The translations under genes were made by a program, and so were the position numbers. This document shows positions 5,794 through 34,884 of a DNA stretch of 64,000 nt, one piece after another. How positions within the stretch are numbered: position 1 is the first letter of the stretch; each line of letters opens with the position of its first letter. The stretch spans positions 1,696,001 to 1,760,000 of the forward strand of contig OZ242372.1 in assembly GCA_965209035.1 (NCBI GenBank). Reading direction: 5' to 3'. This DNA is from Gammaproteobacteria bacterium. GTDB lineage: Bacteria; Pseudomonadota; Gammaproteobacteria; CBDBNL01; JAAOII01. The notes under the pieces were generated by a model. That model made no database searches and was not told the DNA's origin. It saw nothing but the letters and a program-made list of their open reading frames with translations.

Positions 5794-5807
5794 ATTATTA
5801 TAGGATA

Positions 5808-6351
5808 GGTGAATTCAACCCTCCGGCGCAACACCGGTTGCTAAATTATAATCCACTCCGGTCGCTGCTGAGAAGACCTCGGCGGGTGTTCTAAATCCGA
5901 GTCGCTTGCGCGGTCGTTGATTAAGTCGGTGAATGACCCGGGGCAGTTTCTGTCGGCTTGACGCAACAGGCCATTCGTATATGCGTCCGCGCGCGTAACG
6001 GGCAGAGTAAACTCACGATCGCGGCACCGGTGGTTTCCTTGGTGCGGTCTTTGAGATAGGCACTCAAAGTGAGGCCGGTTTTGCGCTCAACCGGAGTGAG
6101 TAAGAAGCCGCTCCGGCTGCTACCCTGCATGGTGTCCGCTTCCCGCTTCCCGATGCCCGGTTTTCTTTCGGCTCTCAATGCCGACCCGTCCGGGGATCTG
6201 CCCGCGGCTGTCCACCCCGACAACGTTTCCGCTTGCTGATGACGATAGCCACGCAAACCCGTATTACGCGCCAGTTGTAAAAGACTTCCTTGAAATTTTC
6301 CAAAATTCAAGGAAACCTTCCACGGTGTTGTGCTAGTTACTTGAATTCACA
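5808..6351 (-). mobile_element. Internally deleted IS30-family element (non-autonomous remnant, about 544 bp)
   Basis: Imperfect terminal inverted repeats GGTGAATTCAACCCTCCGGCGCAACA and TGTGAATTCAAGTAACTAGCACAACA resemble IS30 ends; minus-strand transposase fragments LTPVERKTGLT and LNQRPRKRLGF.TPAE in broken frames. Confidence 0.85.
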
Positions 6352-6410
6352 CATTATAATAAAGTAAATTTTGTTAATATTATTTTTAAGAGTGACGGAC
6401 GGGGTTATAT

Positions 6411-9400
6411 ATGAAAGACACAAAAGAAAAATTACGGGCGCATAAGTTGATGCGAAAATTGGAGTTTAAATCATTTCACCGGTTGGTAGGGAGGCTAACT
6501 TCTGTTGGCTGTCTTTTTGTATGCATGTCTTTTTTGACGGTAGCATGTAGTAACGGTTCTTCCTCCAAATCGCCGCCCCGGACATCGGTCAATGTCGTAT
6601 CCACCGGCACCGGCATCGTGCAGTTTATGGCAATCCCTATAGAAAGCGGCCTGCGAGTGAGTTGGATCAACACACAACCAAACATAGATTACTTTAACAT
6701 TACCCTCGTAAACATAAAAACAGGACAAGTAGAATCGTTTGTCAAACGGGATCAGACAGCCTACGGCGACCAGATCACCATAACTTTTACGGACTTGGAA
6801 GACGAAACCGATTACATCGTATTGGTCGAGATATTTTTTCTTGCCGAGCCGGAACCGCGTGCGGAAGAGCGTGTTATACGCCGCACCGGCAAGAATAGCG
6901 ACAATGACGAACTCCCCGACAGTTTGGATGTTTTTGACGACGATCGTTGTGCTCATACGGATACGGATGGTGACGGCCTGCCGGATGACATTCTTGCCGA
7001 TTGCACGACATCTTTAATAGAGGATCCGGACGATGACAATGACGGGGTGAATGACTTGGCAGATGCCTTTGCTTTGGATTCCTGTGCGTCTGTAGATACG
7101 GATAATGACAGCCTGCCGGATGAAATTCTCGCCAACTGCACAACACCTTTAAAGGAAGACACGGACGACGATGGCGACGGCACAGAGGATCTTGCGGATG
7201 CCTTTGGCAAAGATCGTTGTGCGTCTGTAGATACGGATGATGATGGTCTGCCGGATGATATTCTTGCCGATTGTACGACACCTTTAATAAGAGAGGATCC
7301 GGACGATGACAATGACGGGGTGAATGACTTGGCAGATGCCTTTGCTTTGGATACCTGTGCGTCTGTAGATACGGATGGTGACGGTCTGCCGGATTTTTTG
7401 CTCGCCGATTGTCGGACACTTTTAACGGAAGATGACGACGATGACAATGATAGTATTGCCGATAGCGAGGACTCCGATGACGACAACGATGGGCTGATAG
7501 AGATTCGCTTCTTGGAAGGACTTGCCAATATGCGCGATGACCTGAACGGCGATGGCACGGACGACGGCAGAATCGCCAATGTGGGTCCCGGCAATCACAT
7601 CGGCTGTCCCGCCTCGGGTTGTAAAGGTTATGAACTTGCCCGCTCTTTGGATTTCAAAAAAGCGGATTCCTATCAAAATGCCGCCAATCTGGAATTTTGG
7701 GTTACGGAGACCGGCTGGCCCCCCATCGGCTCTTGCCTGCCGACAAGTACCGACAGATGCACGCCATACGATGCCATCCTTGATGGCAACGGTCATAGTA
7801 TCAACAATTTGTTTATTAACGCGGAGCCGGGCGCTGTCGGGCTTGGATTGTTTGGTTCTGTTTCCGGTTCTGTGCGCAACTTGAATCTTGTTTCCGCCCG
7901 CATCGGCGGCGGCCAAAGAAACACGGGCATCTTGACAGGGTATGCCGCAGATGCCAACATTCTCGGTGTTCGGGTGATCGACGGTTCGGTGAGCGGCGGC
8001 GAAAATGTTGGCGGTCTGGTCGGCTATGGGGAACGAACAAGCATCGTCTCTTCCCGTGCCGAACATCTTTTTATTAACGGCATAGATCACATCGGCGGTC
8101 TGGCGGGGGTTTGGAAACAGGGCAGAATAGAGGCATCCGCCGCATTGCACAACATTATATCCGGCGATGAACGGATCGGCGGTCTGACGGGCCTGTTGGA
8201 TGGCGTATTGAATGATGCGGCGGTTTTGGCATCTTATGTCTTAAATACTTCCTTGACCGGGCGACAAAGCGGCGGCGGTTTGACAGGTTTGGGGGTTGGG
8301 ACGAGTGTGGTTGCTTCTTATGCCGCACTCAGCCGCCAAGATGTGTCGGAAGTTGTTGGCGGTCTTATCGGACAAAGAAGCGGCCGAAATATTGTTGTTA
8401 CTCATTCCTACTGGGATGCCGAAGCCCTTGGTTTTGGATTGCTGAGTGGAATTTTGCCGGCAGCCAAAAGGACGGCTGAGTTGCAAGAGAATACGGATTT
8501 TAACGGTATTTATGCGGCTTGGGATAATTATTGGTGCGACCCGAACACAGGGCTTTTTACAAATAACTCGCAAGATCCTCTTGCTACGGATGAGAACTTG
8601 GCATGGAACCTCGGCAGTGCCACGCAATATCCGTCCTTAGAAAACTGCCACATCAAGTTCGCCGCCCCGCCGCGCCCGGTTAAGAATTTTGAGGTGATCC
8701 CTGCGGAAGGAAGTTTGCAACTCACCTGGGATAACCCGCCCCAAAGATTTTTATGGTTTAAGGTTGCTTGGCAACAATTGGGCGCACAGGACCAAAACGG
8801 AACATCCGCGATAAAAACAACACAAACGGCCCCCGGTAACTCCGCCGCGCATCTTATTGAAAATCTCAGCGATGTGCACAATTATTCCGTCAGCGTATCT
8901 GTTGTGTTGCCGGACGGTCGGACGGCAAGGTCCGTTTCTTTAATTCGCCGTCCGGGGAGAAACCAAGACGGCGATGTCTTGCCGGACGCGCTGGATGACT
9001 TTGACACCGAACCCTGTGCAATTACGGATACGGATGGCGACGGCATGCCGGACGATCTTTTTTGTCCCGCGACGACAGGTCTCGTAGCGGATACGGACGA
9101 CGACAATGATTCGGTGCCGGATGAAAGAGACGCATTTGATAGGGATGCGTGTGCTCACACGGATACGGATGGCGATGGCATGCCGGACGATGTTCTTTGC
9201 CCGTCCGCTTTAATCACGGACAATAACGACGACAACGATTTGGTCCCGGATAGTGCGGATCCTTTTCCATCGGACCGATGTGGCAGTCTGGATCGCGACA
9301 CGGACGGTATTGCGGATGACAGGGTGATTCGTTGCACTTCAAATCTAACCCGGGACACGGACCCGGATAACGATGACTTCCAAGATCAATTGGATGACTT

Positions 9401-12400
9401 CCCCGCGGACTCCTGTGCGAATTTGGACACAGACGGGGACGGCATGCCGGACCGCCTGATACCAAATTGTTCCACGGATTTAAGCGCGGACGATGACGAT
9501 GACGGCGACGGGATTACCGATGCCGAGGATGCGGATGCGGATGGCGACGGCCTGATGGAAGTGAATACCTTGGAAGAACTTGCCGATATGCGCGATGACC
9601 TCAACGGCAACGGGGTGGACGACGACAGAATTACCGGGCGGGGTCCCAAGCATAATCTTGGTTGTCCCCCCGCCGGTTGCAACGGCTACGAACTTGCCAA
9701 ATCATTGAATTTCAACAATAACGACCATTACGAGGACCTTGCCAACAAAGATGCCTGGACAACCGGCTCCGGTTGGCGTTCTATCGGCTCTTGCCGCCAT
9801 ATCACTAGTTGTCGACCTTATACGGCATCTTTTCAAGGAAACGGCTACACGATTGACAACCTGTTTCTTAACAAGAGTTCCGCAACTGTCGGCGTGGGGC
9901 TTTTTGGTGCCGTCGCAGATACAAGGATTAGCAATCTGCGCATCACCAATGCGCGGGTGTTCGGGGGAGCATCCAATGTGGGTATCCTTGCGGGCGTGGC
10001 CGGCGGAAGTTCTTTTCGGATGATTGCCATAGAAAACAGCGAACTTGTCAGCCCGAGCGCCAGGTTTGCCGGTCTGATATGGGGGAGCGCATCCGACGGA
10101 GATCTTTCTTATTCTTATGCGGATCGTGTCAACATTACGGGCAGTTCCGACATTACTTTCGGTCCCAACAACATATTTACGAGATTTCCTTTCGTCGGCG
10201 CTCTGGCAGGCACAAGTGCTTCGATTTCGTATTCGCTTTTGGGAGAATTCCGGCTCAACACCACCATAGCCAGATTCAATTACAGGAGATATAGTTTCCC
10301 TTTTTCCGGAGCCAATCTCGGCCATTTTGCCGCTGCTTATTGGGATAAAGACAGAGCGACTTTTCAGCGCGATGCCACTTTTTTGCGAGGAACTGAAACC
10401 GAAAGATTACAAGGTGAAACAACCCATACGGGTATCTATGCCGGCTGGAAGAATGCCTGGTGTGATCCGCGTTCGGGTGCTTTTACGAGGGATCCGAATC
10501 ATGTTCTGGCGACCGACATCAATCGTGTCTGGGACCTGGGTGTTGAGACCGAATATCCTCGTCTGAACTGCGGTGAGAGTGTCCGCTCCAAGCGATTGCC
10601 CGCAGTCAATGTCACGGCAATTCCCGCCAATCGCAGTTTGCAATTATCTTGGACTAATCCAAACCAAGAATTTTTACACTTTAGAATTGCTTTGACGGAG
10701 CATCAAGAGTACGGAGAGCATCGAGAGCATGGGCAACCCGGTGAAGAGGCGGGCCGCTCTCTTTTGAAGACCAACCAAACGGCAGCCGGCCAGCGCGCCG
10801 TTTATGTTTTTGAGAACTTAAACAATGCTTTCAATTACACTCTTTCCGTAGAAACCGTCTTTTCGGACGGGACGACGGGTAAGACACCGCTCTTTGTTCG
10901 TCGACCGGGGCCGAATGCGGATGGTGATTTCATGCCGGACTCCTTGGATGCGTTTGACGCCGACCCTTGCGCGACCACGGACACGGACGGCGACGGCATG
11001 CCGGACGAGTTGCTCTGTGTTTCAACGACCGGTCTGGTGGCGGACGCGGATGACGACGAGGATGGTGTGCCGGATATCGCGGATGCGTTTCCCCGGGACC
11101 CCTGTGCGACTACGGACACGGACGGCGACGGCATGCCGGATGAGTTGCTATGTGTTTCAACAACCGGTCTGGTGGCGGACGCGGATGACGATAATGACCG
11201 GGTGCCGGATGTCGCGGATGCGTTTGACACGGACCCTTGTGCCGTTGCGGATCAGGACAATGACGGCATGCCAAACGAACTTCTCTGCAATCTTGGCACC
11301 CGTCTTGTAGCCGACGATGACGACGACAATGACAGTGTGCCGGATATTGCGGACGCGTTCATCCTGGACAAGTGCGCGTCGCTGGATACGGACGGCGACG
11401 GCATGCCGAACGAACTTTTTTGTACCACGACAAACCTTACGGAAGATACGGACGACGACAACGACAGTGTTCCCGATGTATCGGACGATTATGGGACGGA
11501 TCCTTGCGCGTTTCGCGATACGGACCGCGATGGTCTGCCGGACGACATCATCACCTTCAATTGTGTAACATCCCTTGTCTTAGATCGGGACAGAGATAAC
11601 GACAGTCTCATAGAGTTGGATACATTGGAAGATCTTGCCACCCTGCGCGATGACCTGGACGGCGACGGGTTGGATGACGGCAGATACCCGGACATTAGCC
11701 CGGGCGGCCGCGCGGGCTGCCCGCCAAACGGTTGTACCGGCTATGAACTGACGCGCTCTTTGGATTTTGCGAAAGCGGATTCTTATCGCGCCTCAGAATA
11801 CGCGCAACATCTTGCCAATTGGACGCGCGGTGACGGCTGGACCCCCATAGGTTATTGCCGGGCGGACAATGATTGCCTGGCTTATGAAGGCGTGTTTGAA
11901 GGCAACAATCACAGCATAATATCTTTGTTTGTGAATGCGAGTTCCCCGGCAAACGGCGTCGGGTTGTTTGCCGCCGCAACCGGTACCTTGCAAAATATTG
12001 GCTTGTCTCGGGCGCGCGTCTTCGGCGGCGACAGTGATACGGGAATTCTGGTCGGCTATGGTGACGGACTGCGTCTAAACAAAGTGACCGTCGACGACTA
12101 TGTTATGCGCGCGCCACAGGGTGCGTCCGTAGGAGCACTGCTGGGGGATGGCTATAACTCGGAAATCACCGCATCTGTCGCCGAGCGCGGCAAAGTGACA
12201 GGCAAAACGAATGTCGGCGGTCTCATCGGTTCGGGTTTTTATACGACTGTTTCCAATTCCGCTACCCGGCATGTTTCCTTGAACGGTAATCAATTCGTCG
12301 GCGGTTTGGTGGGTTACAGTGATGCGATGCTGGTGTCCTCTGCCGAGAGTTTCAATGCAAGTATGGATGGCTCGTCGGCGGTCGGCGGTCTGTTGGGCTT

Positions 12401-15400
12401 TGGCATAAACACCGAGGTTTCCTATTCCGCAACGGACAGGGCAGTGCTGCGCGGCACAGCCGCCGCGGGTGGCTTGATAGGCTTGGCTCTCAATAGCGAA
12501 ATCGCTTATTCCGCCGTCAGCGAGACAATGCTGCGCGGCGCCGATTCCGTCGGTGGTCTTCTGGGCAATGGCACCCGGAGTCTGATCTTGTTTTCAACCG
12601 CCGCGGACAACATGCTTGAGGGCAATCGTTCTGTCGGCGGTTTGATAGGAAAGGGGGACGATGTGGATATTATTTCGTCTTCCTCTGCCGGCACGATGTT
12701 GAGAGGCAATCATTCGTTGGGTGGTCTGGCCGGCAGCGGAGTAGACTTGAATATAGTTGCTTCCTTTGCCGAAGGCGGTGCCATTTCGGGCGGCGAGTAT
12801 GTCGGCGGCTTACTTGGCAGAGGAGATTCGTCTGAAATTGCGCTTTCTTATGCGGCACCGGCCATGTTCGGCGGCAGTGGTGTTGTTGCGAGCCTGGTCC
12901 CCGGTGCAGGGGCATCTGTTTTCATTAATGCGTCCTATTGGGATTACGAACGCAGCGGACTGCCACCCGGTGGCAGCCCAAGCGACCCAACCGCCAAGAC
13001 AACCGCGGAACTTCACAACCAAACGGAGTTTACCGGCATTTACGAACATTGGAACAGATTCCGGTGCGATCCGGAATTTGGATTGTTTTCAACGGACGCA
13101 AATGCGAACCTGTCCGTAGGCTGGGATCTTGGCGATATGCATTCCTATCCGTCTCTCGTTTGCGGTCCGATCGCAGAACCCGCCGTTGCCGGGACACTGA
13201 TTTCGGGCCTGACGGTGATTCCGACGAATCAAACCTTGCGACTGACTTGGACAAACGGACCGCGGAACATCTCGCGTTTTCAAATCGCCCGGCAGATCTT
13301 CGGCCAGCCGAGCAGTTCCGCCTTCAAAGATAACCAGACCGATGCGTTTGCTCCGGCCGAACATGTAATTAATGACTTGGAAAATGGGCAACTATACCGC
13401 ATCATCATTTATGTATTTTTGCAAGACGGTTCCTCGCAAAGAGTGACCTCGGTGTTGAGTGTGCCGGGTCTCAATGCGGACGGTGACGGGACTGCTGATC
13501 TATTGGATGACGACGACGATAATGACAATATCCCCGATCTGACGGACGACTTTGATTTTGATGCCTGTGCCGACTTGGATACGGACGGGGACGGTGTGCC
13601 GGATACTATTAGAGATAACTGCGAGTCTCCCTTAAAAACGGATGCCTTTCCCACGGATGCCTGTGCCGACTTGGATACGGACGGGGACGGTGTGCCGGAT
13701 ACTATTAGAGATAACTGCGAGACTCCCTTAAAAGCGGATGCCTTTCCGTCGGATGCCTGTGCCGCTGTTGACACGGACGGCGACGGAGTTCCCGATGATC
13801 TTTTTAATAACTGCGACACACCTTTGGAAATAGACGCCTTTCCGACCGATGCCTGCGCGGTCCTAGATGCGGATTACGACAGAATTCCGGATGCCTTCTT
13901 ACCCGGTTGCGATACTTCATTGCTGCCTTTGGATGCATTTCCCGGCGACACCTGTGCCTCCGCGGACAGAGACGGGGATGGCAGTCCGGATGCCATCTTG
14001 CCGAATTGTCAAACGCTTCTTAAACAAGATGCCTTCCCGGATGATGCCTGTGCGGCTGCGGATACGGACAAGGACGGCATGCCGAATGAGTTGGCGGCAG
14101 GTTGCACCAACGCTACTACGTCGTTAATAGAGGATACGGATGATGACAATGATCTGGTGAACGATATTTTGGATGTGGATGACGACAACGACAGACTGAT
14201 AGATATTTTTACTTTGGAAGATCTTGCCACCCTGCGCGATGACCTCAACGGCGACGGTGAGGATGACGGCTTGTATGATTCTCTGACCGCCGCCGGCAGC
14301 GCCGGCTGTCCGCAGGATGGCTGCATCGGCTATGAATTGACGCGCTCGTTGGATTTTCTGGCGAATGACTCTTATGCGAATGCAACCCAAAAACAAACAT
14401 GGACACAAGGCGAGGGCTGGCAGCCTATTGGCTCCTGTTCTTCGGTGTTGTTCAATGGGATAGTGCCCACGGCAAGTTGTTCGCAAGTTTTCTCCGGGCA
14501 GTTTGACGGCAACCAGTATCAAATTCGCAACCTGTATATTAATCGCCAAGGCCAGCCGGCCCAGGGCCTCTTTGCCGCTGTCAGCGGCACCCTGAGTAAC
14601 CTGCATCTGACAAGAGCAAATGTTCGGGCAAGTGGAGGTGCAAATGGAATAGGTGCAAACGGAATTGCCGTGTTGGCCGGTTACGGACAGCGGGCTCGGG
14701 CTGAAAACATTCGGATTGAAAACAGCGAGGTAGAGGTCAGTGGAGGTTTTCTTTTTTATACTGGCTCTGTTTTCGGCGGCGGCGAGGGATTAACAATTGT
14801 TAATGCCAGTGTGACCGATGTTTCTGTGAGTGGGGGAGTCGCGGTCGGCGGAATAGCCGGAGGTGTGGGGAGTAATTCCGAATTGATCACTTCCTCTGTT
14901 ACCCAAACGAACATAACCGCATTGACTATCGCAGGTGGCATTGTCGGTTGGGGGGAAGGGACACAGATCATTTATTCTTCTTTCAGAAACGGCAGGGTCA
15001 CAAGTTCCGCCAGCGCGGGATCCCCTCCGAGCGGGATCGGCGGCTTGTTGGGTCTGGGTAATGTAGATTCTACCGTTGTTTTTTCTTATGTCGCCGAGAG
15101 CGACATAAGGGCAAATGTGGAAAATGCCGGCGGACTGGTGGGGGATGTACGAGGTTTTAGTTTTAATGCGGCTTTTGCAACCAGAGGCAGCCGTATCATC
15201 GCCTCCTATGTGTCCGGCGGCAGTGTCTCAGGGAGTGCGTCGGCGGGAGGTCTCATGGGTCATGGTGGTCAATCCCGGATAACGGCATCCTATGTGTCCG
15301 ATGTTGCATTGCGCGTAACCAGAAAGGCTATTGGCGGACTAGCGGGAGTTGGAAGTGCTGCACGGGTCACATCTTCGTATGCCGCACCCGCCGGAATTTT

Positions 15401-17927
15401 TGGCGGTGAGGGTGACGACCGGGGCGGACTTCTGGGAGAGGTAACCAGCGGGAGCGGGGCTGTGATTACAAATTCCTATTGGGATTACCGGACGGCAAAC
15501 CTGGTGCCGGATAGCCATGCCCGAACGACAGAAAACCTGCAGCAACCCGTCAATTTTGCGGGAAGCATTTATGCCGAATGGCAACAGTTCTGGTGCGATC
15601 CCGCCACAGGCTATTTCACGACAAATGCAAGTGATCCAATTGCCACGGACAACTACCGTGCTTGGGATCTCGGCACTTCCACGGAATATCCCGCCCTAAC
15701 CTGTATGGACGAGGATCGGGACGGGGTCCCCACCGGGCGCGATGCCTGGCCTTTTGATCCGTGCGCAAGTCGGGATGCGGACAGGGACGGCAGGCCGGAT
15801 AACATTACACAAGGATGTTTGACGCCTCTCCGACCGGACCCGGATATCGATAATGACAACCTGCCCAATGTGGCGGACGCCTTTCCCGCCGACGCCTGTG
15901 CCGGTACGGATACGGACGGTGACGGCTATCCGGATGCACTAAAAGAAGATTGTATCACTTCGCTAAAAACGGATGCCTTTCCTGCGGATGCCTGTGCGAG
16001 TCTGGATACGGATGGTGACGGCTATGCGGATGCGGTGCAAGACAATTGTTCCACTGAATTGGTTGCGGATGTCTTCCCTGCGGATGCCTGTGCGGCTACG
16101 GATGCGGATGGCGATGGTCATCCGGATCCTCTGCGAGAGAATTGCCCGACTGTGTTGCCTGCGGATGCGTTTCCTGCGGATGCTTGTGCCAATTCGGACA
16201 CGGATGGCGACGGCTATGCGGATGCGGTGCAAGGCAATTGTTCCACTGAATTGGTTGCGGATGCCTTCCCTGCGGATGCCTGTGCGGCTGCGGATACGGA
16301 TGGAGACGGCTATGCGGATGCACTGCAAGACAATTGTTCCACCGCATTGTCGGAAGATGCGTTTCCTGCGGATGCTTGTGCCAATTCGGACACGGATGGC
16401 GACGGCTTTGCCGATCTTTTGGTTATCGGCTGTGTCACCGCTTTAATTGAGGATGCCTTCCCCGGGGATGCCTGTGCCTACGAGGACACGGATCTGGACG
16501 GGCTTCCAAACACTCTTTATTGCGAGTCGGGCATCAATCCGACCGCGGATCATGATGATGACAATGACAGACTCATAGAGATATACTCTTTGGAAGCCCT
16601 TGCCTCCTTGCGTGACGACCTGAACGGGGACGGCAGAGATGACGGACACTTTCCTGGGCTGAGCGTATCCGCTATTGCCGGTTGTCCCGGCGACGGCTGT
16701 CTGGGCTATGAACTGGCAGGCTCATTGGATTTTGGCAACTCGGAATCTTATGAAAATCCGACCAACGAGTCCGTTTGGACCGGTGGTACGGGTTGGGTCC
16801 CCGTTGGCTTCTGTTCCGACGCGGACAACTGCAATCCTTGGACGGGGGTGTTTGAGGGGAACGGACACAGGATCACCGGGCTGTTCATCAATGTAACCGG
16901 CGCAACCGGCCAAACTGCCGAAGCAAGGACTCAAACTAACAGATTGGGGCTGTTTGGTGCGGCCGACGGCATCATACGCAATCTGACCCTCTCATCCGCC
17001 CGTCTGCATGGCGGGGTTGCAAGAGTCGGCGTCCTTGTGGGCGATGCGCGAGGTGCGCGCGTGACGCGGATCCTGGTTAAGGACAGTTTTGTTTTAAGTC
17101 CCGCTGCCGATTCTGTTGGCGGCATGGCGGGCTCCGCGATGAATGCGACCATTATGTATTCCGCCGCAATCAACGGGCGGGTAACAGGGAATGATGCTGT
17201 CGGCGGGTTGGTCGGCGGCGGTCCGGAATCTGTTGTCGAGTTTTCTTTTTCATCGGCACAAAATGTAACCGGCAATCGCCAGGTCGGTGGCCTCATCGGC
17301 GACGGGTCCTATGCCCGGGTTACCGCATCCCATGCCGCTGTTGCAAGAGTGCACGGCACGGACACTGTCGGCGGTCTCATCGGCAATGCCACATACGCAT
17401 CCGTACGGGCTTCTTATGCCGAAGAGGGCAGTGTTAACGGAACCCAAAGAGTTGGCGGTTTGATCGGCGACGCATCATACGCCAATATCAGCGCATCCTA
17501 TGCGCGCAATAATCGGGTCAGTGGCGAAAGTGCTGTCGGTGGAATTGGCGGGCTGGTAGCCTTTGCCGAGATGCATTCCTCGTATGCTGCCAACCGTGGC
17601 TTGTCGGCGGCACGAGATGTGCACGGCATCGGGTTCGGCATGCCTCTTGCCGTTAATGATTCTTACTGGGATTATGAGACCGCGGGCGTCGGTTCCGGTG
17701 CGGATGCGGGAGCAAAAACCTCCGGCGAACTGTCATTACCAACTAACTTTGTTGGGATCTACGCGAATTGGGGAGGTTTTTGGTGTGATGCCGAAACGGG
17801 CATTTGGACAACAGATCCCGCGCATCCCCTTGCCCGGCCAAGTCGGCGGGCATGGAATCTGCAAGATGCGGACAGTTATCCCGTTCTTACCTGCCTTGCC
17901 GATCTTGTACAGGTTCTTCTGCCTTGA
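6411..17927 (+). CDS. Giant modular putative surface lipoprotein (3838 aa): 4 FN3-like domains, TSP3-like DxDxDG repeat tracts and 5 capped GLUG-type solenoid domains
   Basis: Uninterrupted 11.5-kb ORF; lipobox-like LTVAC; repeated DTDGDG.PD units; five copies of GCP..GC.GYEL.RSLDF ... GGL.G coils ... YWD ... WCDP ... AWDLG...YP.L.C. Confidence 0.9.
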   Translation: MKDTKEKLRAHKLMRKLEFKSFHRLVGRLTSVGCLFVCMSFLTVACSNGSSSKSPPRTSVNVVSTGTGIVQFMAIPIESGLRVSWINTQPNIDYFNITLVNIKTGQVESFVKRDQTAYGDQITITFTDLEDETDYIVLVEIFFLAEPEPRAEERVIRRTGKNSDNDELPDSLDVFDDDRCAHTDTDGDGLPDDILADCTTSLIEDPDDDNDGVNDLADAFALDSCASVDTDNDSLPDEILANCTTPLKEDTDDDGDGTEDLADAFGKDRCASVDTDDDGLPDDILADCTTPLIREDPDDDNDGVNDLADAFALDTCASVDTDGDGLPDFLLADCRTLLTEDDDDDNDSIADSEDSDDDNDGLIEIRFLEGLANMRDDLNGDGTDDGRIANVGPGNHIGCPASGCKGYELARSLDFKKADSYQNAANLEFWVTETGWPPIGSCLPTSTDRCTPYDAILDGNGHSINNLFINAEPGAVGLGLFGSVSGSVRNLNLVSARIGGGQRNTGILTGYAADANILGVRVIDGSVSGGENVGGLVGYGERTSIVSSRAEHLFINGIDHIGGLAGVWKQGRIEASAALHNIISGDERIGGLTGLLDGVLNDAAVLASYVLNTSLTGRQSGGGLTGLGVGTSVVASYAALSRQDVSEVVGGLIGQRSGRNIVVTHSYWDAEALGFGLLSGILPAAKRTAELQENTDFNGIYAAWDNYWCDPNTGLFTNNSQDPLATDENLAWNLGSATQYPSLENCHIKFAAPPRPVKNFEVIPAEGSLQLTWDNPPQRFLWFKVAWQQLGAQDQNGTSAIKTTQTAPGNSAAHLIENLSDVHNYSVSVSVVLPDGRTARSVSLIRRPGRNQDGDVLPDALDDFDTEPCAITDTDGDGMPDDLFCPATTGLVADTDDDNDSVPDERDAFDRDACAHTDTDGDGMPDDVLCPSALITDNNDDNDLVPDSADPFPSDRCGSLDRDTDGIADDRVIRCTSNLTRDTDPDNDDFQDQLDDFPADSCANLDTDGDGMPDRLIPNCSTDLSADDDDDGDGITDAEDADADGDGLMEVNTLEELADMRDDLNGNGVDDDRITGRGPKHNLGCPPAGCNGYELAKSLNFNNNDHYEDLANKDAWTTGSGWRSIGSCRHITSCRPYTASFQGNGYTIDNLFLNKSSATVGVGLFGAVADTRISNLRITNARVFGGASNVGILAGVAGGSSFRMIAIENSELVSPSARFAGLIWGSASDGDLSYSYADRVNITGSSDITFGPNNIFTRFPFVGALAGTSASISYSLLGEFRLNTTIARFNYRRYSFPFSGANLGHFAAAYWDKDRATFQRDATFLRGTETERLQGETTHTGIYAGWKNAWCDPRSGAFTRDPNHVLATDINRVWDLGVETEYPRLNCGESVRSKRLPAVNVTAIPANRSLQLSWTNPNQEFLHFRIALTEHQEYGEHREHGQPGEEAGRSLLKTNQTAAGQRAVYVFENLNNAFNYTLSVETVFSDGTTGKTPLFVRRPGPNADGDFMPDSLDAFDADPCATTDTDGDGMPDELLCVSTTGLVADADDDEDGVPDIADAFPRDPCATTDTDGDGMPDELLCVSTTGLVADADDDNDRVPDVADAFDTDPCAVADQDNDGMPNELLCNLGTRLVADDDDDNDSVPDIADAFILDKCASLDTDGDGMPNELFCTTTNLTEDTDDDNDSVPDVSDDYGTDPCAFRDTDRDGLPDDIITFNCVTSLVLDRDRDNDSLIELDTLEDLATLRDDLDGDGLDDGRYPDISPGGRAGCPPNGCTGYELTRSLDFAKADSYRASEYAQHLANWTRGDGWTPIGYCRADNDCLAYEGVFEGNNHSIISLFVNASSPANGVGLFAAATGTLQNIGLSRARVFGGDSDTGILVGYGDGLRLNKVTVDDYVMRAPQGASVGALLGDGYNSEITASVAERGKVTGKTNVGGLIGSGFYTTVSNSATRHVSLNGNQFVGGLVGYSDAMLVSSAESFNASMDGSSAVGGLLGFGINTEVSYSATDRAVLRGTAAAGGLIGLALNSEIAYSAVSETMLRGADSVGGLLGNGTRSLILFSTAADNMLEGNRSVGGLIGKGDDVDIISSSSAGTMLRGNHSLGGLAGSGVDLNIVASFAEGGAISGGEYVGGLLGRGDSSEIALSYAAPAMFGGSGVVASLVPGAGASVFINASYWDYERSGLPPGGSPSDPTAKTTAELHNQTEFTGIYEHWNRFRCDPEFGLFSTDANANLSVGWDLGDMHSYPSLVCGPIAEPAVAGTLISGLTVIPTNQTLRLTWTNGPRNISRFQIARQIFGQPSSSAFKDNQTDAFAPAEHVINDLENGQLYRIIIYVFLQDGSSQRVTSVLSVPGLNADGDGTADLLDDDDDNDNIPDLTDDFDFDACADLDTDGDGVPDTIRDNCESPLKTDAFPTDACADLDTDGDGVPDTIRDNCETPLKADAFPSDACAAVDTDGDGVPDDLFNNCDTPLEIDAFPTDACAVLDADYDRIPDAFLPGCDTSLLPLDAFPGDTCASADRDGDGSPDAILPNCQTLLKQDAFPDDACAAADTDKDGMPNELAAGCTNATTSLIEDTDDDNDLVNDILDVDDDNDRLIDIFTLEDLATLRDDLNGDGEDDGLYDSLTAAGSAGCPQDGCIGYELTRSLDFLANDSYANATQKQTWTQGEGWQPIGSCSSVLFNGIVPTASCSQVFSGQFDGNQYQIRNLYINRQGQPAQGLFAAVSGTLSNLHLTRANVRASGGANGIGANGIAVLAGYGQRARAENIRIENSEVEVSGGFLFYTGSVFGGGEGLTIVNASVTDVSVSGGVAVGGIAGGVGSNSELITSSVTQTNITALTIAGGIVGWGEGTQIIYSSFRNGRVTSSASAGSPPSGIGGLLGLGNVDSTVVFSYVAESDIRANVENAGGLVGDVRGFSFNAAFATRGSRIIASYVSGGSVSGSASAGGLMGHGGQSRITASYVSDVALRVTRKAIGGLAGVGSAARVTSSYAAPAGIFGGEGDDRGGLLGEVTSGSGAVITNSYWDYRTANLVPDSHARTTENLQQPVNFAGSIYAEWQQFWCDPATGYFTTNASDPIATDNYRAWDLGTSTEYPALTCMDEDRDGVPTGRDAWPFDPCASRDADRDGRPDNITQGCLTPLRPDPDIDNDNLPNVADAFPADACAGTDTDGDGYPDALKEDCITSLKTDAFPADACASLDTDGDGYADAVQDNCSTELVADVFPADACAATDADGDGHPDPLRENCPTVLPADAFPADACANSDTDGDGYADAVQGNCSTELVADAFPADACAAADTDGDGYADALQDNCSTALSEDAFPADACANSDTDGDGFADLLVIGCVTALIEDAFPGDACAYEDTDLDGLPNTLYCESGINPTADHDDDNDRLIEIYSLEALASLRDDLNGDGRDDGHFPGLSVSAIAGCPGDGCLGYELAGSLDFGNSESYENPTNESVWTGGTGWVPVGFCSDADNCNPWTGVFEGNGHRITGLFINVTGATGQTAEARTQTNRLGLFGAADGIIRNLTLSSARLHGGVARVGVLVGDARGARVTRILVKDSFVLSPAADSVGGMAGSAMNATIMYSAAINGRVTGNDAVGGLVGGGPESVVEFSFSSAQNVTGNRQVGGLIGDGSYARVTASHAAVARVHGTDTVGGLIGNATYASVRASYAEEGSVNGTQRVGGLIGDASYANISASYARNNRVSGESAVGGIGGLVAFAEMHSSYAANRGLSAARDVHGIGFGMPLAVNDSYWDYETAGVGSGADAGAKTSGELSLPTNFVGIYANWGGFWCDAETGIWTTDPAHPLARPSRRAWNLQDADSYPVLTCLADLVQVLLP

Positions 17928-28191: not shown

Positions 28192-31100
28192 TTGTTTTTG
28201 ATGTTTCCTGTGCCCTTAACCTGTAGTTTTATTGCGGGATCTTTCGCGACCAAGTGTTATCCTTTGATAGTGCGGTTCGGCTTTTGGAGTTTTATTTTGA
28301 TACTTGTTTCTTGCACGCAAGGACAAGTCACCCAAGGCTTGGCGAGAGGAGGAAACGGGGATCTGGTGCGTGCTCTGGATACGGACCAAGACGGGTTGAT
28401 AGAGATACAAACTCTGGAAGAACTTGCCTGTCTGCATAAAGATCTTGACGGAGACGGCAAGGACGACAATGATGATTCCAACCTCTATGCGGCCAGAATC
28501 GGCAGTTGCCCCAACAGCGGTTGCGTTGGTTACGAGTTAAACCGTTCTTTGGACTTTGCCGATGCCGATTCTTATTCGCATCCGGCAATCAATATGAATC
28601 TTTGGACAAATGTCCCGGGCGGCAGCAAAGGCAGTTGGCGACCGCTCGGATCTTGTTCCGACCACCTGTGTGATGCTTATAGCGGGATTTTTAATGGAAA
28701 CGGTCACACCCTTTCCAATCTTTTCATCAATGCTTCCGCGGAGATTTCGGGCGTTGGTTTGTTTGCCGCAATGAATGGTACTGTGATTAACTTCAACATG
28801 GAGAATATCACTGTGCATGGCGGGAATCGTTATGTGGGAACTTTGGCGGGTTTTGCTTCCGGCATTCTGATTGAAAATGTTACTGTCGCGCGTATTCGGG
28901 TTTCGGGTATGTCGGCGGCGGATGTCGGCGGTCTGATCGGCAAAGGCGACCATGCTACGGTAACTTCCGTTTGGTTGGCCGGAGTGGAGATGACCGGCAA
29001 TCGCTCGGTGGCGGGTTTGATGGGGTACGGTGACGACGCAAAAATTTCTATGGCCTATGTTGAAGGTGTTTCCGTTCGGGGGAAAGAAAATCTTGGCGGT
29101 CTTGTGGGGGGCGGCTCAGGCACAGAGATTGCCGCTTCGTTTGTCAGTGCGGATTATCTTATAGGGGATGACGATAACATAGGCGGCCTAATCGGCAGAG
29201 GACAATCCGCACAAATAGCCGCTTCATATGCGGTCGGCGGACGTATCACCGGTAATGCACGGGTCGGCGGTTTGGTTGGCAGCGGATTTAACACCACTGT
29301 CACAGCATCTTATGCGGCAATCGGACCGATCTACGCAGCGAGCGACAGCGGCGGGTTGATCGGTTCTGTGACAAACGGCGGCCGGCAATTGGCAAGGATC
29401 AATTTTTCTTATTGGGATGGTCAAATGACGCGTCTTGCCGAAAGTCCGGGCGGCGGACAACGCATGGGTGGCCAAAGAATGCGACAAGAGGTTGTTTTGA
29501 AGGGTATTTACAAAAATTGGAAACCGTTTTGGTGCGACCCAACCAAGCATTTTTTTACTTCCGACAGCGAGCATCCTCTTGCAACCGCTGACAATCTTGC
29601 TTGGGATCTTGGCAATAGCTACCAGTATCCGGCTTTGCGTTGCAGTTTGCATGACGATGAAACATATCAAAGACACCCTGCCGATTCTCCGGTGGATCAC
29701 TTAACACTTGATCGGATCAATCGAACACTTGTACTGAATTGGAAAAACCCGCCCGGCGAAATTGCATACTTCAATATCACTTTGCAGAAAGAAGGGGGTG
29801 GGGAGAGATATTTCATTAAGGATGACCAGACACCGTCTCGGGGAGAATCCACATACTTGATTGAAAATTTGAGCGAATCCGGTTTTTATCGCGTGCGAGT
29901 GATTTTGGTTTCAACAAACGGGGCGAGGTATCCTTTTAATACGGACAGAGTGTTTATTGATGCGGACGGTGACGATGACGGTTTTGATGATGCCGCGGAC
30001 AATTGCCCGCTGGTTGCGAATACGAATCAAACCAATACGGACGGGGCCGCGGACGGCGGTGATGCCTGCGATCCGGACGATGACGATGACGGTTTTAAGG
30101 ATGTTGCGGACAATTGCCGGCTGGTTGCGAATACGAATCAAACCAATACGGATGGTGCCGCGGACGGCGGCGATGCCTGCGATCCGGACGATGACAATGA
30201 TGGTGTGGAAGATGTAACGGATGTATTTTCTTTGGATCCTTGTGCGAGTGTGGATACGGATGGCGATGGCAGGCCGGATCAGCTGGTGGCCAATTGCACG
30301 ACAGACTTGACAGAAGACCCGGACGATGACGATGACGGTTTTCCGGACGAAGCAAACAGGACCACAAGGGCGGACAACTGCCAGTTTACGGCTAATCCCG
30401 ACCAGGCGAATCATGACAGCGATGCCTTGGGCGACTTATGTGATCCGGACGATGACAATGACGGTTTTGAGGATGTTGCGGACAATTGCCCGCTGGTTGC
30501 GAATACGAATCAAACCAATACGGATGGTGCCGCGGACGGCGGCGATGCCTGCGATCCGGACGATGACAATGATGGTGTGGAAGATGTAACGGATGTATTT
30601 TCTTTGGATCCTTGTGCGAGTGTGGATACGGATGGCGATGGCAGGCCGGATCAGCTGGTGGCCAATTGCACGACAGACTTGACAGAAGACCCGGACGATG
30701 ACGATGACGGTTTTCCGGACGAAGCAAACAGGACCACAAGGGCGGACAATTGTCCGTTGGTGGCGAATGCGAATCAAACCAATACGGATGGTGCCGCGGA
30801 CGGCGGCGATGCCTGCGACCCGGACGATGACAATGACGGCTTGGATGACCTTGCGGATAACTGCCAGTTTGTAAGTAACCCGGGGCAGACGAATACGGAT
30901 GGAGCGAATGACGGCGGTGATGCCTGCGATCCGGACGATGACAATGACGGCATTGAGGACACAGCGGACCATGATCGCGACGGCGATGGCTTGATAGAAA
31001 TTCACTTTTTGGAGGACCTTGCCGCCCTGCGCGACGACTTGAATGCGGACGGTGAGGACGATGGCAATCTCCCGGATGTCGGTGAGAATCGTTCCGCGGG

Positions 31101-32544
31101 CTGCCCGGTCGGGGTCGGAGGCTGCTTCGGTTACGAATTGGCACGCTCGCTGAACTTTGATGAGCCGTCTTCTTACGCGGATCCGCTCAACAACATCCCT
31201 CTTTGGACGAGGACGGGAAGCGATGGTCGCGGCTGGACCCCAATCGGCGCGATAGACCGGACGGGAAGCTGCGCCGGCTCAGATTCTTGTCCTTTTTATG
31301 ATGGGGTTTTTGAAGGGAATCATCACAGTATTTCCAACTTGTATCTGAATGCCTCGGATGAAAGTCTGTGGGTGGGTCTGTTTGCCGCCATTGGTGATAG
31401 CCTGCAGAGTGGCGTATTGAACTTGCAAGAGGTTCCTCCGAACGGCGGTCTTGTCAGAAATCTTAAAATAACAAATGCAAGTATTTTTGGCGGTAGTCGC
31501 CATGTCGGTATTCTGGCCGGTCATGCACGCGGTCTGCGTCTTTTTAATGTTGCGGTGCGGGGCGGGACTGTGCTGAGTCCGCTGGCGCAAAGAGTCGGCG
31601 GGCTGGCGGGGTTCGGTTTCTTTTCGCGCTCTAATGCTGTTTCATTCTCCGACGGTGTCATCGTCGGACGAGAGAAGGTGGGCGGTCTGTTTGGCGATGG
31701 TGCGATTTTTATTAACAACTCTTATGTATCCAATGCGAACTTATCGGGTCAGGCAGACATTGGCGGGCTGGTGGGCGGTTATGAAGAAGGAATGCATTTC
31801 ACTTTTAAGGAATCTTTTGTGATAGCATCCTATGTCGCGAATGTTAGTTTGACCGGCGGCAGTCGGCTGGGTGGTATTGCGGGTTATTCTTCTGATATCA
31901 GCCTTATTTCATCGTTCGCCCGAGGGATTTCGCTACGGGGGGAAAATAAAATAGGCGGGCTGGTGGGGGATGCGATCAATACCCGCTTATTCGGTTCATT
32001 CGCCCGAGTGGACCGTCTGATTGGGGCAAACCGGAGCGTTGGCGGTTTGGTGGGAGAAGCCAATGGTGTCCGCATCAAGGCTTCCTATGCGCTGGGCGGT
32101 CCTGTTCGGGCAAACAGTTTCGTGGGCGGTCTTGTCGGTGCGGTCTTGAATAATGTGGACATCCATTCATCTTATGCCGCCCTCGGTCCTTTAAGCGGTC
32201 AGATGGATGTCGGCGGTTTGGTGGGCACACAGACAGGCGACGCGCGCCCGGTGCAAGTTTATTCTTCTTACTGGGACCGGGAGGTGACCGGGCAAGATGT
32301 CAGTGCCGGTGAGGGTGGCGAAGGCAAGACTGGAGACGAGTTAAAGAGACCGACCGAGTTCTCGGGCGGTATCTATGCCGACTGGGCGAATTTTTGGTGT
32401 GACCCGACCGACGGCTTATTCACGAACACGGACGATGACACCGCCCGGACGACGGCTGCTTATCGTGCTTGGGATCTCGGCGACAGCGATGCCTATCCCA
32501 CCCTGACATGTGTTCGCAACCCGGGCGAAGTTCGCTCCCCTTGA
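28192..32544 (+). CDS. Putative surface lipoprotein of the same family (solenoid, FN3-like, canonical TSP3 repeats, solenoid), 1450 aa; start uncertain
   Basis: Lipobox-like LVSC; two capped GLUG-type domains; DNCPLVANTNQ..TDG..DGGDACDPD repeats. Confidence 0.9.
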   Translation: MFLMFPVPLTCSFIAGSFATKCYPLIVRFGFWSFILILVSCTQGQVTQGLARGGNGDLVRALDTDQDGLIEIQTLEELACLHKDLDGDGKDDNDDSNLYAARIGSCPNSGCVGYELNRSLDFADADSYSHPAINMNLWTNVPGGSKGSWRPLGSCSDHLCDAYSGIFNGNGHTLSNLFINASAEISGVGLFAAMNGTVINFNMENITVHGGNRYVGTLAGFASGILIENVTVARIRVSGMSAADVGGLIGKGDHATVTSVWLAGVEMTGNRSVAGLMGYGDDAKISMAYVEGVSVRGKENLGGLVGGGSGTEIAASFVSADYLIGDDDNIGGLIGRGQSAQIAASYAVGGRITGNARVGGLVGSGFNTTVTASYAAIGPIYAASDSGGLIGSVTNGGRQLARINFSYWDGQMTRLAESPGGGQRMGGQRMRQEVVLKGIYKNWKPFWCDPTKHFFTSDSEHPLATADNLAWDLGNSYQYPALRCSLHDDETYQRHPADSPVDHLTLDRINRTLVLNWKNPPGEIAYFNITLQKEGGGERYFIKDDQTPSRGESTYLIENLSESGFYRVRVILVSTNGARYPFNTDRVFIDADGDDDGFDDAADNCPLVANTNQTNTDGAADGGDACDPDDDDDGFKDVADNCRLVANTNQTNTDGAADGGDACDPDDDNDGVEDVTDVFSLDPCASVDTDGDGRPDQLVANCTTDLTEDPDDDDDGFPDEANRTTRADNCQFTANPDQANHDSDALGDLCDPDDDNDGFEDVADNCPLVANTNQTNTDGAADGGDACDPDDDNDGVEDVTDVFSLDPCASVDTDGDGRPDQLVANCTTDLTEDPDDDDDGFPDEANRTTRADNCPLVANANQTNTDGAADGGDACDPDDDNDGLDDLADNCQFVSNPGQTNTDGANDGGDACDPDDDNDGIEDTADHDRDGDGLIEIHFLEDLAALRDDLNADGEDDGNLPDVGENRSAGCPVGVGGCFGYELARSLNFDEPSSYADPLNNIPLWTRTGSDGRGWTPIGAIDRTGSCAGSDSCPFYDGVFEGNHHSISNLYLNASDESLWVGLFAAIGDSLQSGVLNLQEVPPNGGLVRNLKITNASIFGGSRHVGILAGHARGLRLFNVAVRGGTVLSPLAQRVGGLAGFGFFSRSNAVSFSDGVIVGREKVGGLFGDGAIFINNSYVSNANLSGQADIGGLVGGYEEGMHFTFKESFVIASYVANVSLTGGSRLGGIAGYSSDISLISSFARGISLRGENKIGGLVGDAINTRLFGSFARVDRLIGANRSVGGLVGEANGVRIKASYALGGPVRANSFVGGLVGAVLNNVDIHSSYAALGPLSGQMDVGGLVGTQTGDARPVQVYSSYWDREVTGQDVSAGEGGEGKTGDELKRPTEFSGGIYADWANFWCDPTDGLFTNTDDDTARTTAAYRAWDLGDSDAYPTLTCVRNPGEVRSP

Positions 32545-34770: not shown

Positions 34771-34848
34771 CATTATGCTCACAAACAACTCTCGCCAATC
34801 CAGTTTTTGCAAAAACAAAAAAAGTCCGGAAATGGGTGGGATCATACA
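34771..34848. repeat. Degenerate copy of an ~80-bp dispersed palindromic element
   Basis: Ungapped match to 48089-48166, 57 of 78 positions by hand count. Confidence 0.7.
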
Positions 34849-34852
34849 CATA

Positions 34853-34884
34853 CACTAATTACTTGAGTTCACATGTTATAATAA
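34853..34884 (+). promoter_or_regulatory. Isolated IS30 terminal-repeat remnant followed by an extended -10 element (TGnTATAAT)
   Basis: CACTAATTACTTGAGTTCACA-TGT-TATAATAA matches the ends at 6351 and 18591 in both sequence and spacing. Confidence 0.65.

What the first reader, a model, noticed from the sequence alone, without database searches (positions are those of the whole stretch)
6324..34884. Three of four family genes follow an identical IS30-end + 3 nt + TATAATAA junction
Seen: CTAGTTACTTGAATTCACA-CAT-TATAATAA (end at 6351), CTAGTTACTTGAATTTACA-GTG-TATAATAA (18591) and CTAATTACTTGAGTTCACA-TGT-TATAATAA (34873). Each lies about 55-80 bp before the first ATG of a repeat-lipoprotein ORF, in the same orientation. 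At the third site only the terminal ~20 bp of the IS survives. Known: IS30-family elements have preferred target sites and can form hybrid promoters. Inferred: either the element targets -10 boxes, or the IS end has been domesticated as a promoter, operator or recombination site that expresses or mobilises this gene family as cassettes.
Basis: partly seen in the sequence, partly recalled or inferred. Interest (0 to 1): 0.85.

Follow-up and report, generated by a model that had tools for sequence, protein, structure and literature searches.

The report
Decayed IS30 ends beside promoter boxes
Three surface-lipoprotein genes carry the tip of a dead IS30-type mobile element two to three bases from their TATAAT promoter box, most likely because that element preferred this palindromic box as a landing site rather than because it was recruited as a switch.

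Summary
The motif occurs three times (19-mer tips at 6351, 18591 and 34873), against 0 in 100 shuffles.

The 19-mer is the tip of the left inverted repeat of a decayed IS30-family element. Transposase remnants lie on the minus strand, and the genome holds no intact copy.

The family is not four genes. It has 79 paralogous ORFs, and many have their own TATAAT(AA) box with no IS30 end.

Genome-wide, 4 of 19 such tips lie exactly 2 nt from the 9-bp palindrome TTAT(A/T)ATAA (background 0.04-0.24%). The fourth sits on the opposite side of another family promoter.

At the three sites the spacer bases differ (1 of 9 pairwise identities) and the downstream leaders are not homologous. The IS ends at sites A and B are not each other's closest copies.

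Best reading (0.55): independent, target-directed insertions next to a palindromic -10 box. No -35/-10 hybrid promoter is formed. No recombinase or intact IS30 transposase was found. Domestication is therefore not supported.

A second, active IS481-like element is the stronger result. Of 14 copies with clean 5-bp duplications, 13 lie 27-29 nt upstream of a -10-like hexamer, co-oriented. Its remnant probably explains the truncation at site C.

No RNA data were available.

The parts
5808..6351 (-). IS30-like remnant, copy A (about 544 nt, internally deleted). The IRR-type tip is at 5808 and the IRL tip at 6351.
   Evidence: Repeat with copy B and with C1:2022338-2023085. IRR-type end found. The 129-aa ORF 5921-6310 (-) scores 27.4 bits to NF033563, below the 80-bit cut-off.
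6286..6314 (.). Decayed subterminal hairpin of copy A (arms CCTTGAA.TTTT / AAAATTCAAGG).
   Evidence: here the fold is no better than shuffles (z -0.53). The same element is a 23-bp stem in the roughly 85-nt hairpin+IRL (MITE-like) derivative copies (z -5.9).
6321..6351 (+).
   Evidence: By my reading, it is 21/31 identical to the IRR-type end read outward.
6352..6362 (+). Spacer CAT plus TATAATAA. The 9-bp palindrome TTATAATAA is 6354-6362, 2 nt from the tip.
6411..17927 (+). Family gene F1, a 3838-aa repeat lipoprotein (repeat units matching the TSP3-type repeats of F2/F3).
   Evidence: Its first 1000 aa gave no Pfam hit.
18034..18591 (-). IS30-like remnant, copy B. The transposase remnant is at 18267-18524 (-).
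   Evidence: 53 bits, 1 TAG stop.
18523..18558 (.). Subterminal hairpin of copy B (16-bp stem).
   Evidence: -24 kcal/mol, z -4.9, 0 of 200 shuffles fold as well.
18561..18602 (+). IRL of copy B (to 18591), spacer GTG, then TATAATAA (18595-18602).
   Evidence: 8/9 match to the palindrome.
18670..21540 (+). Family gene F2, 956 aa (GLUG and TSP_3 domains).
28192..32544 (+). Family gene F3, 1450 aa (TSP_3, fn3). It has no IS30 end and no TATAATAA upstream.
34771..34848 (+). 78-nt remnant of the 3' end of the IS481-like element. It ends ...GGGATCATACA, 28 nt before the TATAAT of F4.
   Evidence: 96% identity over 78 nt to a full copy; row + 1730848, hexamer at offset 28; loose ends at 34771 and 34848 come from other copies.
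34853..34884 (+). Solo IS30-like IRL tip (about 21 nt, to 34873), spacer TGT, then TATAATAA (34877-34884). TGT+TATAAT reads as an extended -10.
   Evidence: The 19-mer is identical to that of C1:570532.
34930..37320 (+). Family gene F4, 796 aa (fn3). From the TATAAT onward its leader is homologous to family genes that lack the IS30 end.

Best explanation
The three junctions are relics of separate insertions of a now-extinct IS30-family element or its non-autonomous derivatives. That element preferred to land 2 nt from the 9-bp AT palindrome TTATAATAA. In this genome the palindrome is the -10 box (TATAAT+AA) of many promoters of a 79-member surface-lipoprotein family. Shown: the IS identity, the genome-wide excess of tips at this exact distance, and the lack of homology around the three junctions. 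Inferred: that the 2 nt are the target duplication typical of IS30 relatives; that family promoters were hit (or kept) because insertions there are tolerated; and that each gene is still read from its own -10 box, with the IS end replacing the former upstream promoter DNA. At site C the rest of the IS30-like element was probably lost in two steps. An IS481-like element inserted at its usual 28 nt upstream of the same -10 box, and a deletion then removed most of both elements (inferred).
For: (1) IS30 identity. NF033563 scores 112 bits at C1:2022490-2022840, with nucleotide-homologous remnants at sites A and B. HTH_38 lies next to IRL plus hairpin at C1:1371783-1371914. (2) Of 19 IRL-type tips, 3 have TATAAT and 4 have TATAA at +3 (tails 2e-8 and 3e-9, or 1e-6 and 6e-7 against AT-rich DNA). 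4 of 19 match TTAT(A/T)ATAA at 8/9 or better at offset 2, against a background of 0.041% or 0.24%. (3) The fourth tip (C1:723405) abuts the canonical promoter of family gene C1:720662 from the downstream side, reading ...AAAGTTATAATAA-TG|tip. A palindromic target predicts this; inheritance does not. (4) The spacers CAT, GTG and TGT share 1 of 9 pairwise positions, while the 19-mers share 16-18 of 19 and the 8-mer 8 of 8. (5) Downstream DNA of A and B matches neither each other nor C. C's leader matches family genes without the IS end, at 64-82%. (6) Over the terminal 64 nt, A versus B is 51/64. A's best match is C1:408541 (55/64) and B's is C1:1371977 (58/64). (7) TATAAT(AA) is the family's own box: 22 family upstream regions have it within 110 nt, and 19 of these have no IS30 end. 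(8) In passages read of PMC9333248 and PMC5821093, IS30 relatives prefer nearly palindromic or T-A-rich hot spots, make 2-bp duplications, and leave terminal IR remnants after deletions. (9) 2 of the 4 MITE-like copies (about 85-nt hairpin+IRL derivatives) whose left edge I could place show matching 2-nt flanks, GG and CA (my reading).
Against: 15 of 19 IRL-type tips and all 10 IRR-type tips lack the motif at that offset, so the preference is partial at best. No matching 2-3-nt duplications flank copies A, B or the C1:2022338 copy (my reading). All three sites lie within 29 kb, in one orientation, next to one gene family. Family promoters hold only 11 of 176 TATAATAA 8-mers yet take all four hits, so something beyond the 9-mer is involved: selection, local hopping or shared ancestry. 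A decayed IS30-like end 65 nt before family gene C1:1320127 has no TATAAT. IS-end-plus-promoter units do spread by gene duplication in this family, as the IS481-like remnants show (identical flanks at C1:720362, 1200483, 1202500 and 1204705). No empty site, active copy or transposition assay is available.
Confidence: 0.55

Rival explanations
1. Single origin. One ancestral IS30 insertion beside one family promoter was spread to F1, F2 and F4 by local duplication, gene conversion or illegitimate recombination using the -10 box as a break point.
For: There is identical spacing and an identical 8-mer at three genes of one family, within 29 kb and in one orientation. Copies A and B share an overall deletion layout, with the transposase N-terminal part missing and the hairpin kept. 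Promoter-plus-IS-remnant units are demonstrably duplicated with family genes elsewhere.
Against: The spacer bases are the least conserved part, at 1 of 9 pairwise identities. The leaders and N-termini of F1, F2 and F4 are not homologous, and F4's leader groups with genes that lack the IS end. The ends of A and B are each closer to copies elsewhere than to each other. The oppositely oriented fourth junction at C1:723405 and the non-family site C1:408541 (CC+TTATAAAAG) cannot be copies.
Confidence: 0.2
2. Selection filter or expression effect. Insertions were not aimed, but only those that left the -10 box intact were kept. They were kept because they silence, weaken or rewire expression of dispensable surface antigens.
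For: Family promoters hold 11 of 176 TATAATAA 8-mers but all four IS-associated ones. In a 79-member family a promoter insertion is likely tolerated (inference). Site C keeps TGT+TATAAT, an extended -10 like the family promoters at C1:576155, 1016854, 1072385 and 2080225.
Against: Selection alone does not give single-base precision at four sites, nor the mirror-image junction at C1:723405. The non-family site C1:408541 lies after the convergent 423-aa ORF C1:406776-408047, not at a promoter. No canonical -35 is created.
Confidence: 0.13
3. Domestication. The IS end is now an operator or a recombination site through which a trans-acting protein switches or shuffles family genes.
For: Three copies of CTTGAAT lie in the hairpin and the IR, which could be protein-binding sites. 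Two direct IS remnants bracket F1 like a composite transposon.
Against: Only 3 of 79 family ORFs carry the junction. No intact IS30 transposase exists. The single HTH_38 stretch is a fragment cut by another IS. No scanned neighbour is a recombinase. The hairpin at site A has decayed. No joint in the laid contigs points to inversion or excision at the sites; the one odd joint is explained by a repeat elsewhere. F1 has no second copy.
Confidence: 0.07

Closest known systems
IS30 family insertion sequences (IS30, ISApl1, ISAba125)
   Same: There are DDE transposase remnants with an N-terminal HTH_38 and roughly 30-nt imperfect terminal repeats. IS30 relatives prefer nearly palindromic or T-A-rich hot spots, make 2-bp duplications, and undergo deletions that leave only a terminal IR (passages read in PMC9333248 and PMC5821093). 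Hybrid promoters are known for ISAba125 (recalled, plus the search listing).
   Different: No intact copy is present. The apparent hot spot doubles as a -10 box. The insertion lies beside the palindrome rather than at its centre. The IS end supplies no -35 at the right distance. The element was not found in 60 relatives or in the two public collections scanned.
TnGBS / ISLre2 / ISKra4 (prokaryotic Mutator-like transposases that insert at a fixed distance upstream of sigma-A promoters)
   Same: [quoted passage not shown] The IS481-like element here behaves alike: 13 of 14 clean insertions lie 27-29 nt before a -10-like hexamer.
   Different: Those elements lie 15-17 bp upstream of the -35 box and use Mutator-like transposases. 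Here the transposase is IS481/IS3-like (rve domains). Only the -10 hexamer is conserved in the flanks. The IS30-like tips lie 2-3 nt from the -10 box itself.
MITEs derived from insertion sequences
   Same: Copies of about 85 nt consisting of hairpin plus IRL occur without a transposase gene at 7-8 places, two of them with matching 2-nt flanks.
   Different: They carry one full IR plus a short terminal TGTGAA-type match, not two full IRs. No transposase is left to move them.
Phase-variable lipoprotein families switched by site-specific recombination (Mycoplasma vsa/vsp type; recalled, not tested against sequence)
   Same: There is a large family of repeat lipoproteins with conserved 5' regions.
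   Different: There is no recombinase among the neighbours scanned, no repeated site in front of most members, and no rearranged forms in the laid data.

Membership tests
IS30 family | IS30-type DDE transposase | tested here: met
   NF033563 scores 112 bits (cut-off 80) at C1:2022490-2022840, with 1 TGA stop inside. Sites A and B score 25.5-27.4 and 53 bits, below the cut-off, but are 84-95% identical in DNA to that copy. All copies are broken.
IS30 family | N-terminal HTH_38 DNA-binding domain next to IRL | tested here: met
   PF13936 scores 46.8 bits (cut-off 27) at C1:1371783-1371914 (-), directly inside IRL plus hairpin. It is cut off by the left end of an IS481-like element. It is absent at the three window sites.
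IS30 family | Terminal inverted repeats of about 20-30 nt | tested here: met
   IRL versus the IRR-type end read outward is 21 of 31 identical: the terminal TTGAATTCAC plus the inner CGGTGTTGC block (my comparison).
IS30 family | 2-3-bp target duplication | tested here: inconclusive
   No matching flanks at copies A, B or C1:2022338. Matching 2-nt flanks at 2 of 4 MITE-like copies (my reading).
IS-borne hybrid promoter | -35-like hexamer in the IS end, 16-18 nt from a flank -10 | tested here: not met
   The consensus scan found 0, 0 and 0 such + strand promoters at the three sites. The TTGAAT in the IR lies only 8 nt from the TATAAT.
Site-specific recombination or cassette system | Recombinase gene and a site in front of most cassettes | tested here: not met
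   The 19 neighbouring ORFs scanned are metabolic, transport or cell-wall genes, or gave no Pfam hit (2 of 19). 3 of 79 family ORFs carry the site.
IS481 family (the second element) | IS481-type transposase | tested here: inconclusive
   NF033577 is the best hit at 172.2 bits but falls below its 224-bit cut-off. IS3 scores 99.8 bits. rve, rve_3 and HTH_32 are present.
Promoter-directed transposons (TnGBS type) | [quoted passage not shown] | tested here: met
   For the IS481-like element, 13 of 14 copies with a perfect 5-bp duplication have TAnnnT at 27-29 nt (background 3.3%, or 9.4% in AT-rich DNA). The 44 left-end flanks show no such peak. The transposase family differs, so this is a likeness in behaviour, not membership.

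The most novel reading that the evidence does not exclude
Two unrelated transposase families in one small genome use the -10 promoter element as a positional cue. An active IS481-like element lands 28 nt upstream of it, always co-oriented. An extinct IS30-like element landed 2 nt from its palindromic form. If so, promoter-directed transposition has arisen outside the Mutator-like TnGBS/ISLre2 group and is measured from the -10 box, either through RNA polymerase/sigma-70 bound there or by direct reading of TATAAT. It would then repeatedly rewire the promoters of a 79-member surface-lipoprotein family.
Probability: 0.3. Interest if true: 0.75.

Novelty: new variant of a known kind. Interest (0 to 1): 0.5.

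Why it matters
For the finding as given, the result is sobering. The striking triple junction is best read as the footprint of an insertion preference, not as a new regulatory device.

It does show that an IS30 relative can have a -10-like palindrome as a hot spot. That places IS scars exactly where they change promoter architecture of surface-antigen genes.

The accompanying IS481-like element matters more. It is intact and present in about 20 copies. It gives a testable case of promoter-distance-directed transposition in a transposase family not known for it. That bears on how mobile elements choose safe or useful landing sites in bacteria.

Tried and rejected
**Hybrid promoter.** I scanned the three sites for TTGACA-16/18-TATAAT pairs. 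None involves the IS end, so this reading is rejected on sequence grounds only.

**Related genomes.** The full motif was found in 0 of 60 relatives. The 28-nt IR was found in 0 of 4 same-family genomes. The relatives' gltX orthologues are only 52-53% identical, so no empty-site comparison is possible.

**Public collections.** The 19-mer pattern gave 3 loci in genome contigs and 15 in metagenome contigs. By my reading, 0 of these 18 carry the IS sequence upstream of the 19-mer, so they are chance matches. Records of the window's own genome may be left out of these collections.

**Expression.** No RNA holder was listed.

**Laid reads.** I laid X4, X1 and X3 on 17900-35100. X4 covers the stretch at about 1x and at 90-95% likeness. 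X1 and X3 are one sample that holds 83-94% of the stretch's sampled words and may be the window's own source. No informative joints appeared. The 18173/34848 'opposite strands' joint is explained by C1:739047-739120, where an IS481-like end abuts an IS30-like IRR segment.

**Protein search.** F4 gave 385 hits at E<=1e-10, none with a name. The best foreign hit is 75% identical.

**IS481-like transposase in relatives.** Only two distant hits were found, at 33% and 39% identity.

**Stop-codon explanation.** I considered that the -10 signal beside the IS481-like element merely reflects selection for an in-frame stop codon, since its ORF runs into the flank. I rejected this because hexamers such as TAAAAT and offsets 27 and 29 give no in-frame stop, and because the conserved positions are those of a -10 box.

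Full report
**Observation.** The pattern CTARTTACTTGARTTYACA-N3-TATAAT occurs three times in the window, at 6333-6360, 18573-18600 and 34855-34882. All three are on the + strand without mismatch, and none was found in 100 shuffles. Each is followed by AA, so the 8-mer TATAATAA is shared, and the spacers are CAT, GTG and TGT. The TATAAT boxes lie 56, 75 and 53 nt before the first ATG of ORFs 6411-17927 (3838 aa), 18670-21540 (956 aa) and 34930-37320 (796 aa). These ORFs carry GLUG, TSP_3 or fn3 repeats and have lipoboxes. A fourth paralogue, 28192-32544, has neither the IS end nor the 8-mer upstream.

**What the 19-mer is.** The window is C1:1696001-1760000 of a 2.24-Mb, two-contig genome. The IS30 transposase model NF033563 matches the minus strand at window 5993-6196 (25.5 bits) and 18267-18524 (53 bits). 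It matches above its cut-off (112 bits, one internal stop) at C1:2022490-2022840. That copy is 84-95% identical in DNA to the two window copies. The other 20 hits, at about 22 bits, belong to a different element described below.

The only HTH_38 domain in the genome lies at C1:1371783-1371914 (-). It sits directly inside a copy of the 19-mer end plus a long hairpin, and it is cut off by another IS. The native order is therefore IRL, hairpin, transposase N-terminus. The 19-mer is the tip of IRL, and the transposase reads away from the lipoprotein genes.

The full IR is about 31 nt. It is 21/31 identical to the other end read outward. Copies A (5808-6351) and B (18034-18591) are internally deleted remnants. 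No intact IS30 transposase is encoded anywhere in the genome. Derivatives of about 85 nt made of hairpin plus IRL occur at seven or eight further places. Their hairpin is a 23-bp stem; it is 16 bp at site B and decayed at site A.

**How I counted ends.** One search gave 17 places within 4 mismatches of the 19-mer. I dropped two 4-mismatch hits without any IS sequence upstream (C1:1559707, C1:2165045). I added one copy found by BLAST (C1:1305229) and three decayed copies found with a profile (C1:1308316, 1320062, 1394647). This gives 19 IRL-type tips.

**The gene family and its own promoter.** The family is far larger than four. 79 ORFs of the genome match F1-F4 at E<1e-20. Of 29 family upstream regions I displayed, 22 have a TATAAT within 110 nt of the start, and 19 of those 22 have no IS30 end. 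Many share a conserved promoter of the form ATTTTG.AAATTAA.GT-TATAAT-AAT.GTTGAG. Eleven family genes have the 8-mer TATAATAA within 250 nt upstream, out of 176 such 8-mers in the genome. The TATAATAA therefore belongs to the genes, not to the IS. From the TATAAT onward, the leader of F4 is homologous to family genes that lack the IS end (64-82%). The leaders of F1 and F2 match nothing else, not even each other.

**Is the junction aimed or inherited?** Among the 19 IRL-type tips, TATAAT starts at +3 in 3 and TATAA in 4. None of the 10 IRR-type tips has it at +3; there is one at +2 and one at +5. The motif is better described as tip, 2 nt, then the 9-bp palindrome TTAT(A/T)ATAA. Four of 19 tips match it at 8/9 or better at exactly that offset, against 0.041% of random positions and 0.24% of AT-rich positions. 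A fifth tip matches 7/9 at a non-family site that follows a convergent 423-aa ORF.

The fourth good match is decisive for me. At C1:723405 the tip abuts the canonical promoter of family gene C1:720662 from the downstream side, reading ...AAAGTTATAATAA-TG|tip. It is a mirror image that cannot be a copy of the other three, but it is what a palindromic target predicts.

Three further points argue for separate events. The spacer is the least conserved part of the junction, with 1 of 9 pairwise identities, against 16-18 of 19 in the IR tip and 8 of 8 in the box. The flanking leaders are unrelated. The terminal 64 nt of copies A and B are 51/64 identical, and each is closer to a copy elsewhere (55/64 and 58/64).

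In passages I read, IS30 has nearly palindromic hot spots and makes 2-bp duplications (PMC9333248). The IS30-family element ISApl1 inserts in T-A-rich sites, makes 2-bp duplications, and is often lost by deletions that leave a terminal IR piece (PMC5821093). Two of four MITE-like copies here have matching 2-nt flanks (my reading).

**What speaks against this reading.** Most tips (15 of 19) are not at such a site. Copies A and B show no flanking duplication. All four good sites are at family promoters, although these hold only 11 of 176 8-mers. The three window sites are clustered and co-oriented. Either selection (insertions tolerated only at dispensable genes), local hopping, or some shared ancestry must add to the target preference.

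Promoter-plus-IS-remnant units are copied with family genes elsewhere in this genome (identical flanks in a tandem array). Inheritance is therefore possible in principle. In those cases, however, the flanks are plainly homologous, unlike here.

**Function.** No -35-like hexamer lies 16-18 nt before any of the three boxes. The TTGAAT of the IR is only 8 nt away. The IS end thus replaces the old upstream promoter DNA rather than completing a hybrid promoter. Site C retains TGT+TATAAT, an extended -10 like several sister promoters; sites A and B do not.

Of the 19 neighbouring ORFs scanned, 17 are ordinary and 2 gave no Pfam hit. The ordinary ones include argininosuccinate synthase, a CDP-alcohol phosphatidyltransferase, GMC oxidoreductases, a NifU-like protein, glutamyl-tRNA synthetase, a lytic transglycosylase and ABC transporter parts. 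None is a recombinase. I therefore find no support for a domesticated operator or recombination site. Expression could not be examined.

**The second element, and site C.** About 20 near-identical copies of a 1.3-kb element encode a 345-aa transposase. Its best match is the IS481 model, at 172 bits, below the 224-bit cut-off. It ends ...GGGATCATACA and makes 5-bp duplications.

Of 14 full copies with a perfect duplication, 13 have a TAnnnT hexamer 27-29 nt beyond the right end. The background is 3.3%, or 9.4% in AT-rich DNA, giving binomial tails of 8e-19 and 6e-13. Over all 64 distinct right-end flanks, the hexamer is at 27-29 nt in 39, and exact TATAAT in 19. The 44 left-end flanks show no peak, and no -35 consensus appears between the IS end and the hexamer. 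Of 43 ends with the hexamer at 26-30 nt, 33 have a co-oriented ORF starting within 400 nt: 9 family genes and 24 others.

This is oriented, distance-specific association with -10 boxes. The known parallel is TnGBS/ISLre2/ISKra4, which insert 15-17 bp upstream of the -35 of sigma-A promoters but use Mutator-like transposases (PMC3942029, abstract and passages).

At site C a 78-nt remnant of this element (34771-34848, 96% identical to a full copy) ends exactly 28 nt before F4's TATAAT. The IS30 tip lies inside those 28 nt. I infer that the IS481-like element inserted into the older IS30-like copy at its usual distance. A later deletion then removed most of both, which is why only about 21 nt of the IS30 end survive there.

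**Limits.** Neither element was found in the relatives or collections searched. There are no RNA runs. The one foreign DNA run covers the locus too thinly.

**Verdict.** As an IS30 story it is a new variant of a known kind. The promoter-distance rule of the IS481-like element is the more interesting lead.

Noticed in passing
Genome-wide; in the window 34771-34848; examples C1:410154-411224, C1:526520-527554: An active IS481-like element (about 20 full copies, 68 right ends) sits 27-29 nt upstream of a -10-like hexamer, co-oriented. This holds for 13 of 14 copies with clean 5-bp duplications and for 39 of 64 distinct right flanks. No -35 signal is seen, and the left end shows nothing.
   Followed up: partly
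Whole genome G000: The lipoprotein family has 79 ORFs in a 2.24-Mb genome. Several tandem arrays (for example C1:1198561-1210199) repeat a solo IS481-like end remnant plus promoter in front of each gene.
   Followed up: partly
C1:1131003 and C1:1133514 (minus strand), outside the window: Two neighbouring family promoters read TATAATAATAG-TTGAGTTCACA. That is the last 11 nt of the IS30-like tip, 3 nt after the 8-mer, where sister genes have TTGAGTGATG. These look like leftovers of further IS30-like insertions removed by microhomology deletion.
   Followed up: no
window 5795-5802 (minus strand): The other end of IS30-like copy A is also followed, 5 nt out, by TATAATAA. This one lies 1 nt before the ATG of the CDP-alcohol phosphatidyltransferase ORF 5191-5793. 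Copy A is therefore bracketed by two outward-facing copies of the 8-mer.
   Followed up: no
C1:1371783-1371914 (L077): The only HTH_38 coding stretch in the genome is an IS30 N-terminal fragment. It is open for 98 aa (a 71-aa ORF from the first ATG) and is truncated by the left end of an IS481-like element.
   Followed up: partly
C1:739047-739121: An IS481-like right end lies 28 nt before a TATAAT that is internal to an IS30-like IRR segment. That IRR tip is in turn followed at +2 by TATAAT. The IS481-like element thus seems to follow any TATAAT, not only working promoters.
   Followed up: no
window 30067-30738: Inside family gene F3 there are two 300-nt copies, 372 nt apart and 99% identical. 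Contigs of the sample show alternative joints there.
   Followed up: no
window 48001-50000: A low-G+C stretch (36-41% against about 50% elsewhere). Not examined.
   Followed up: no
window 21656-21666 (minus strand): An 11-nt match to the IS30-like tip (TTGAATTCACA) lies about 120 nt after the stop of F2. By my rough estimate about four such matches are expected by chance in the genome, so it may mean nothing.
   Followed up: no
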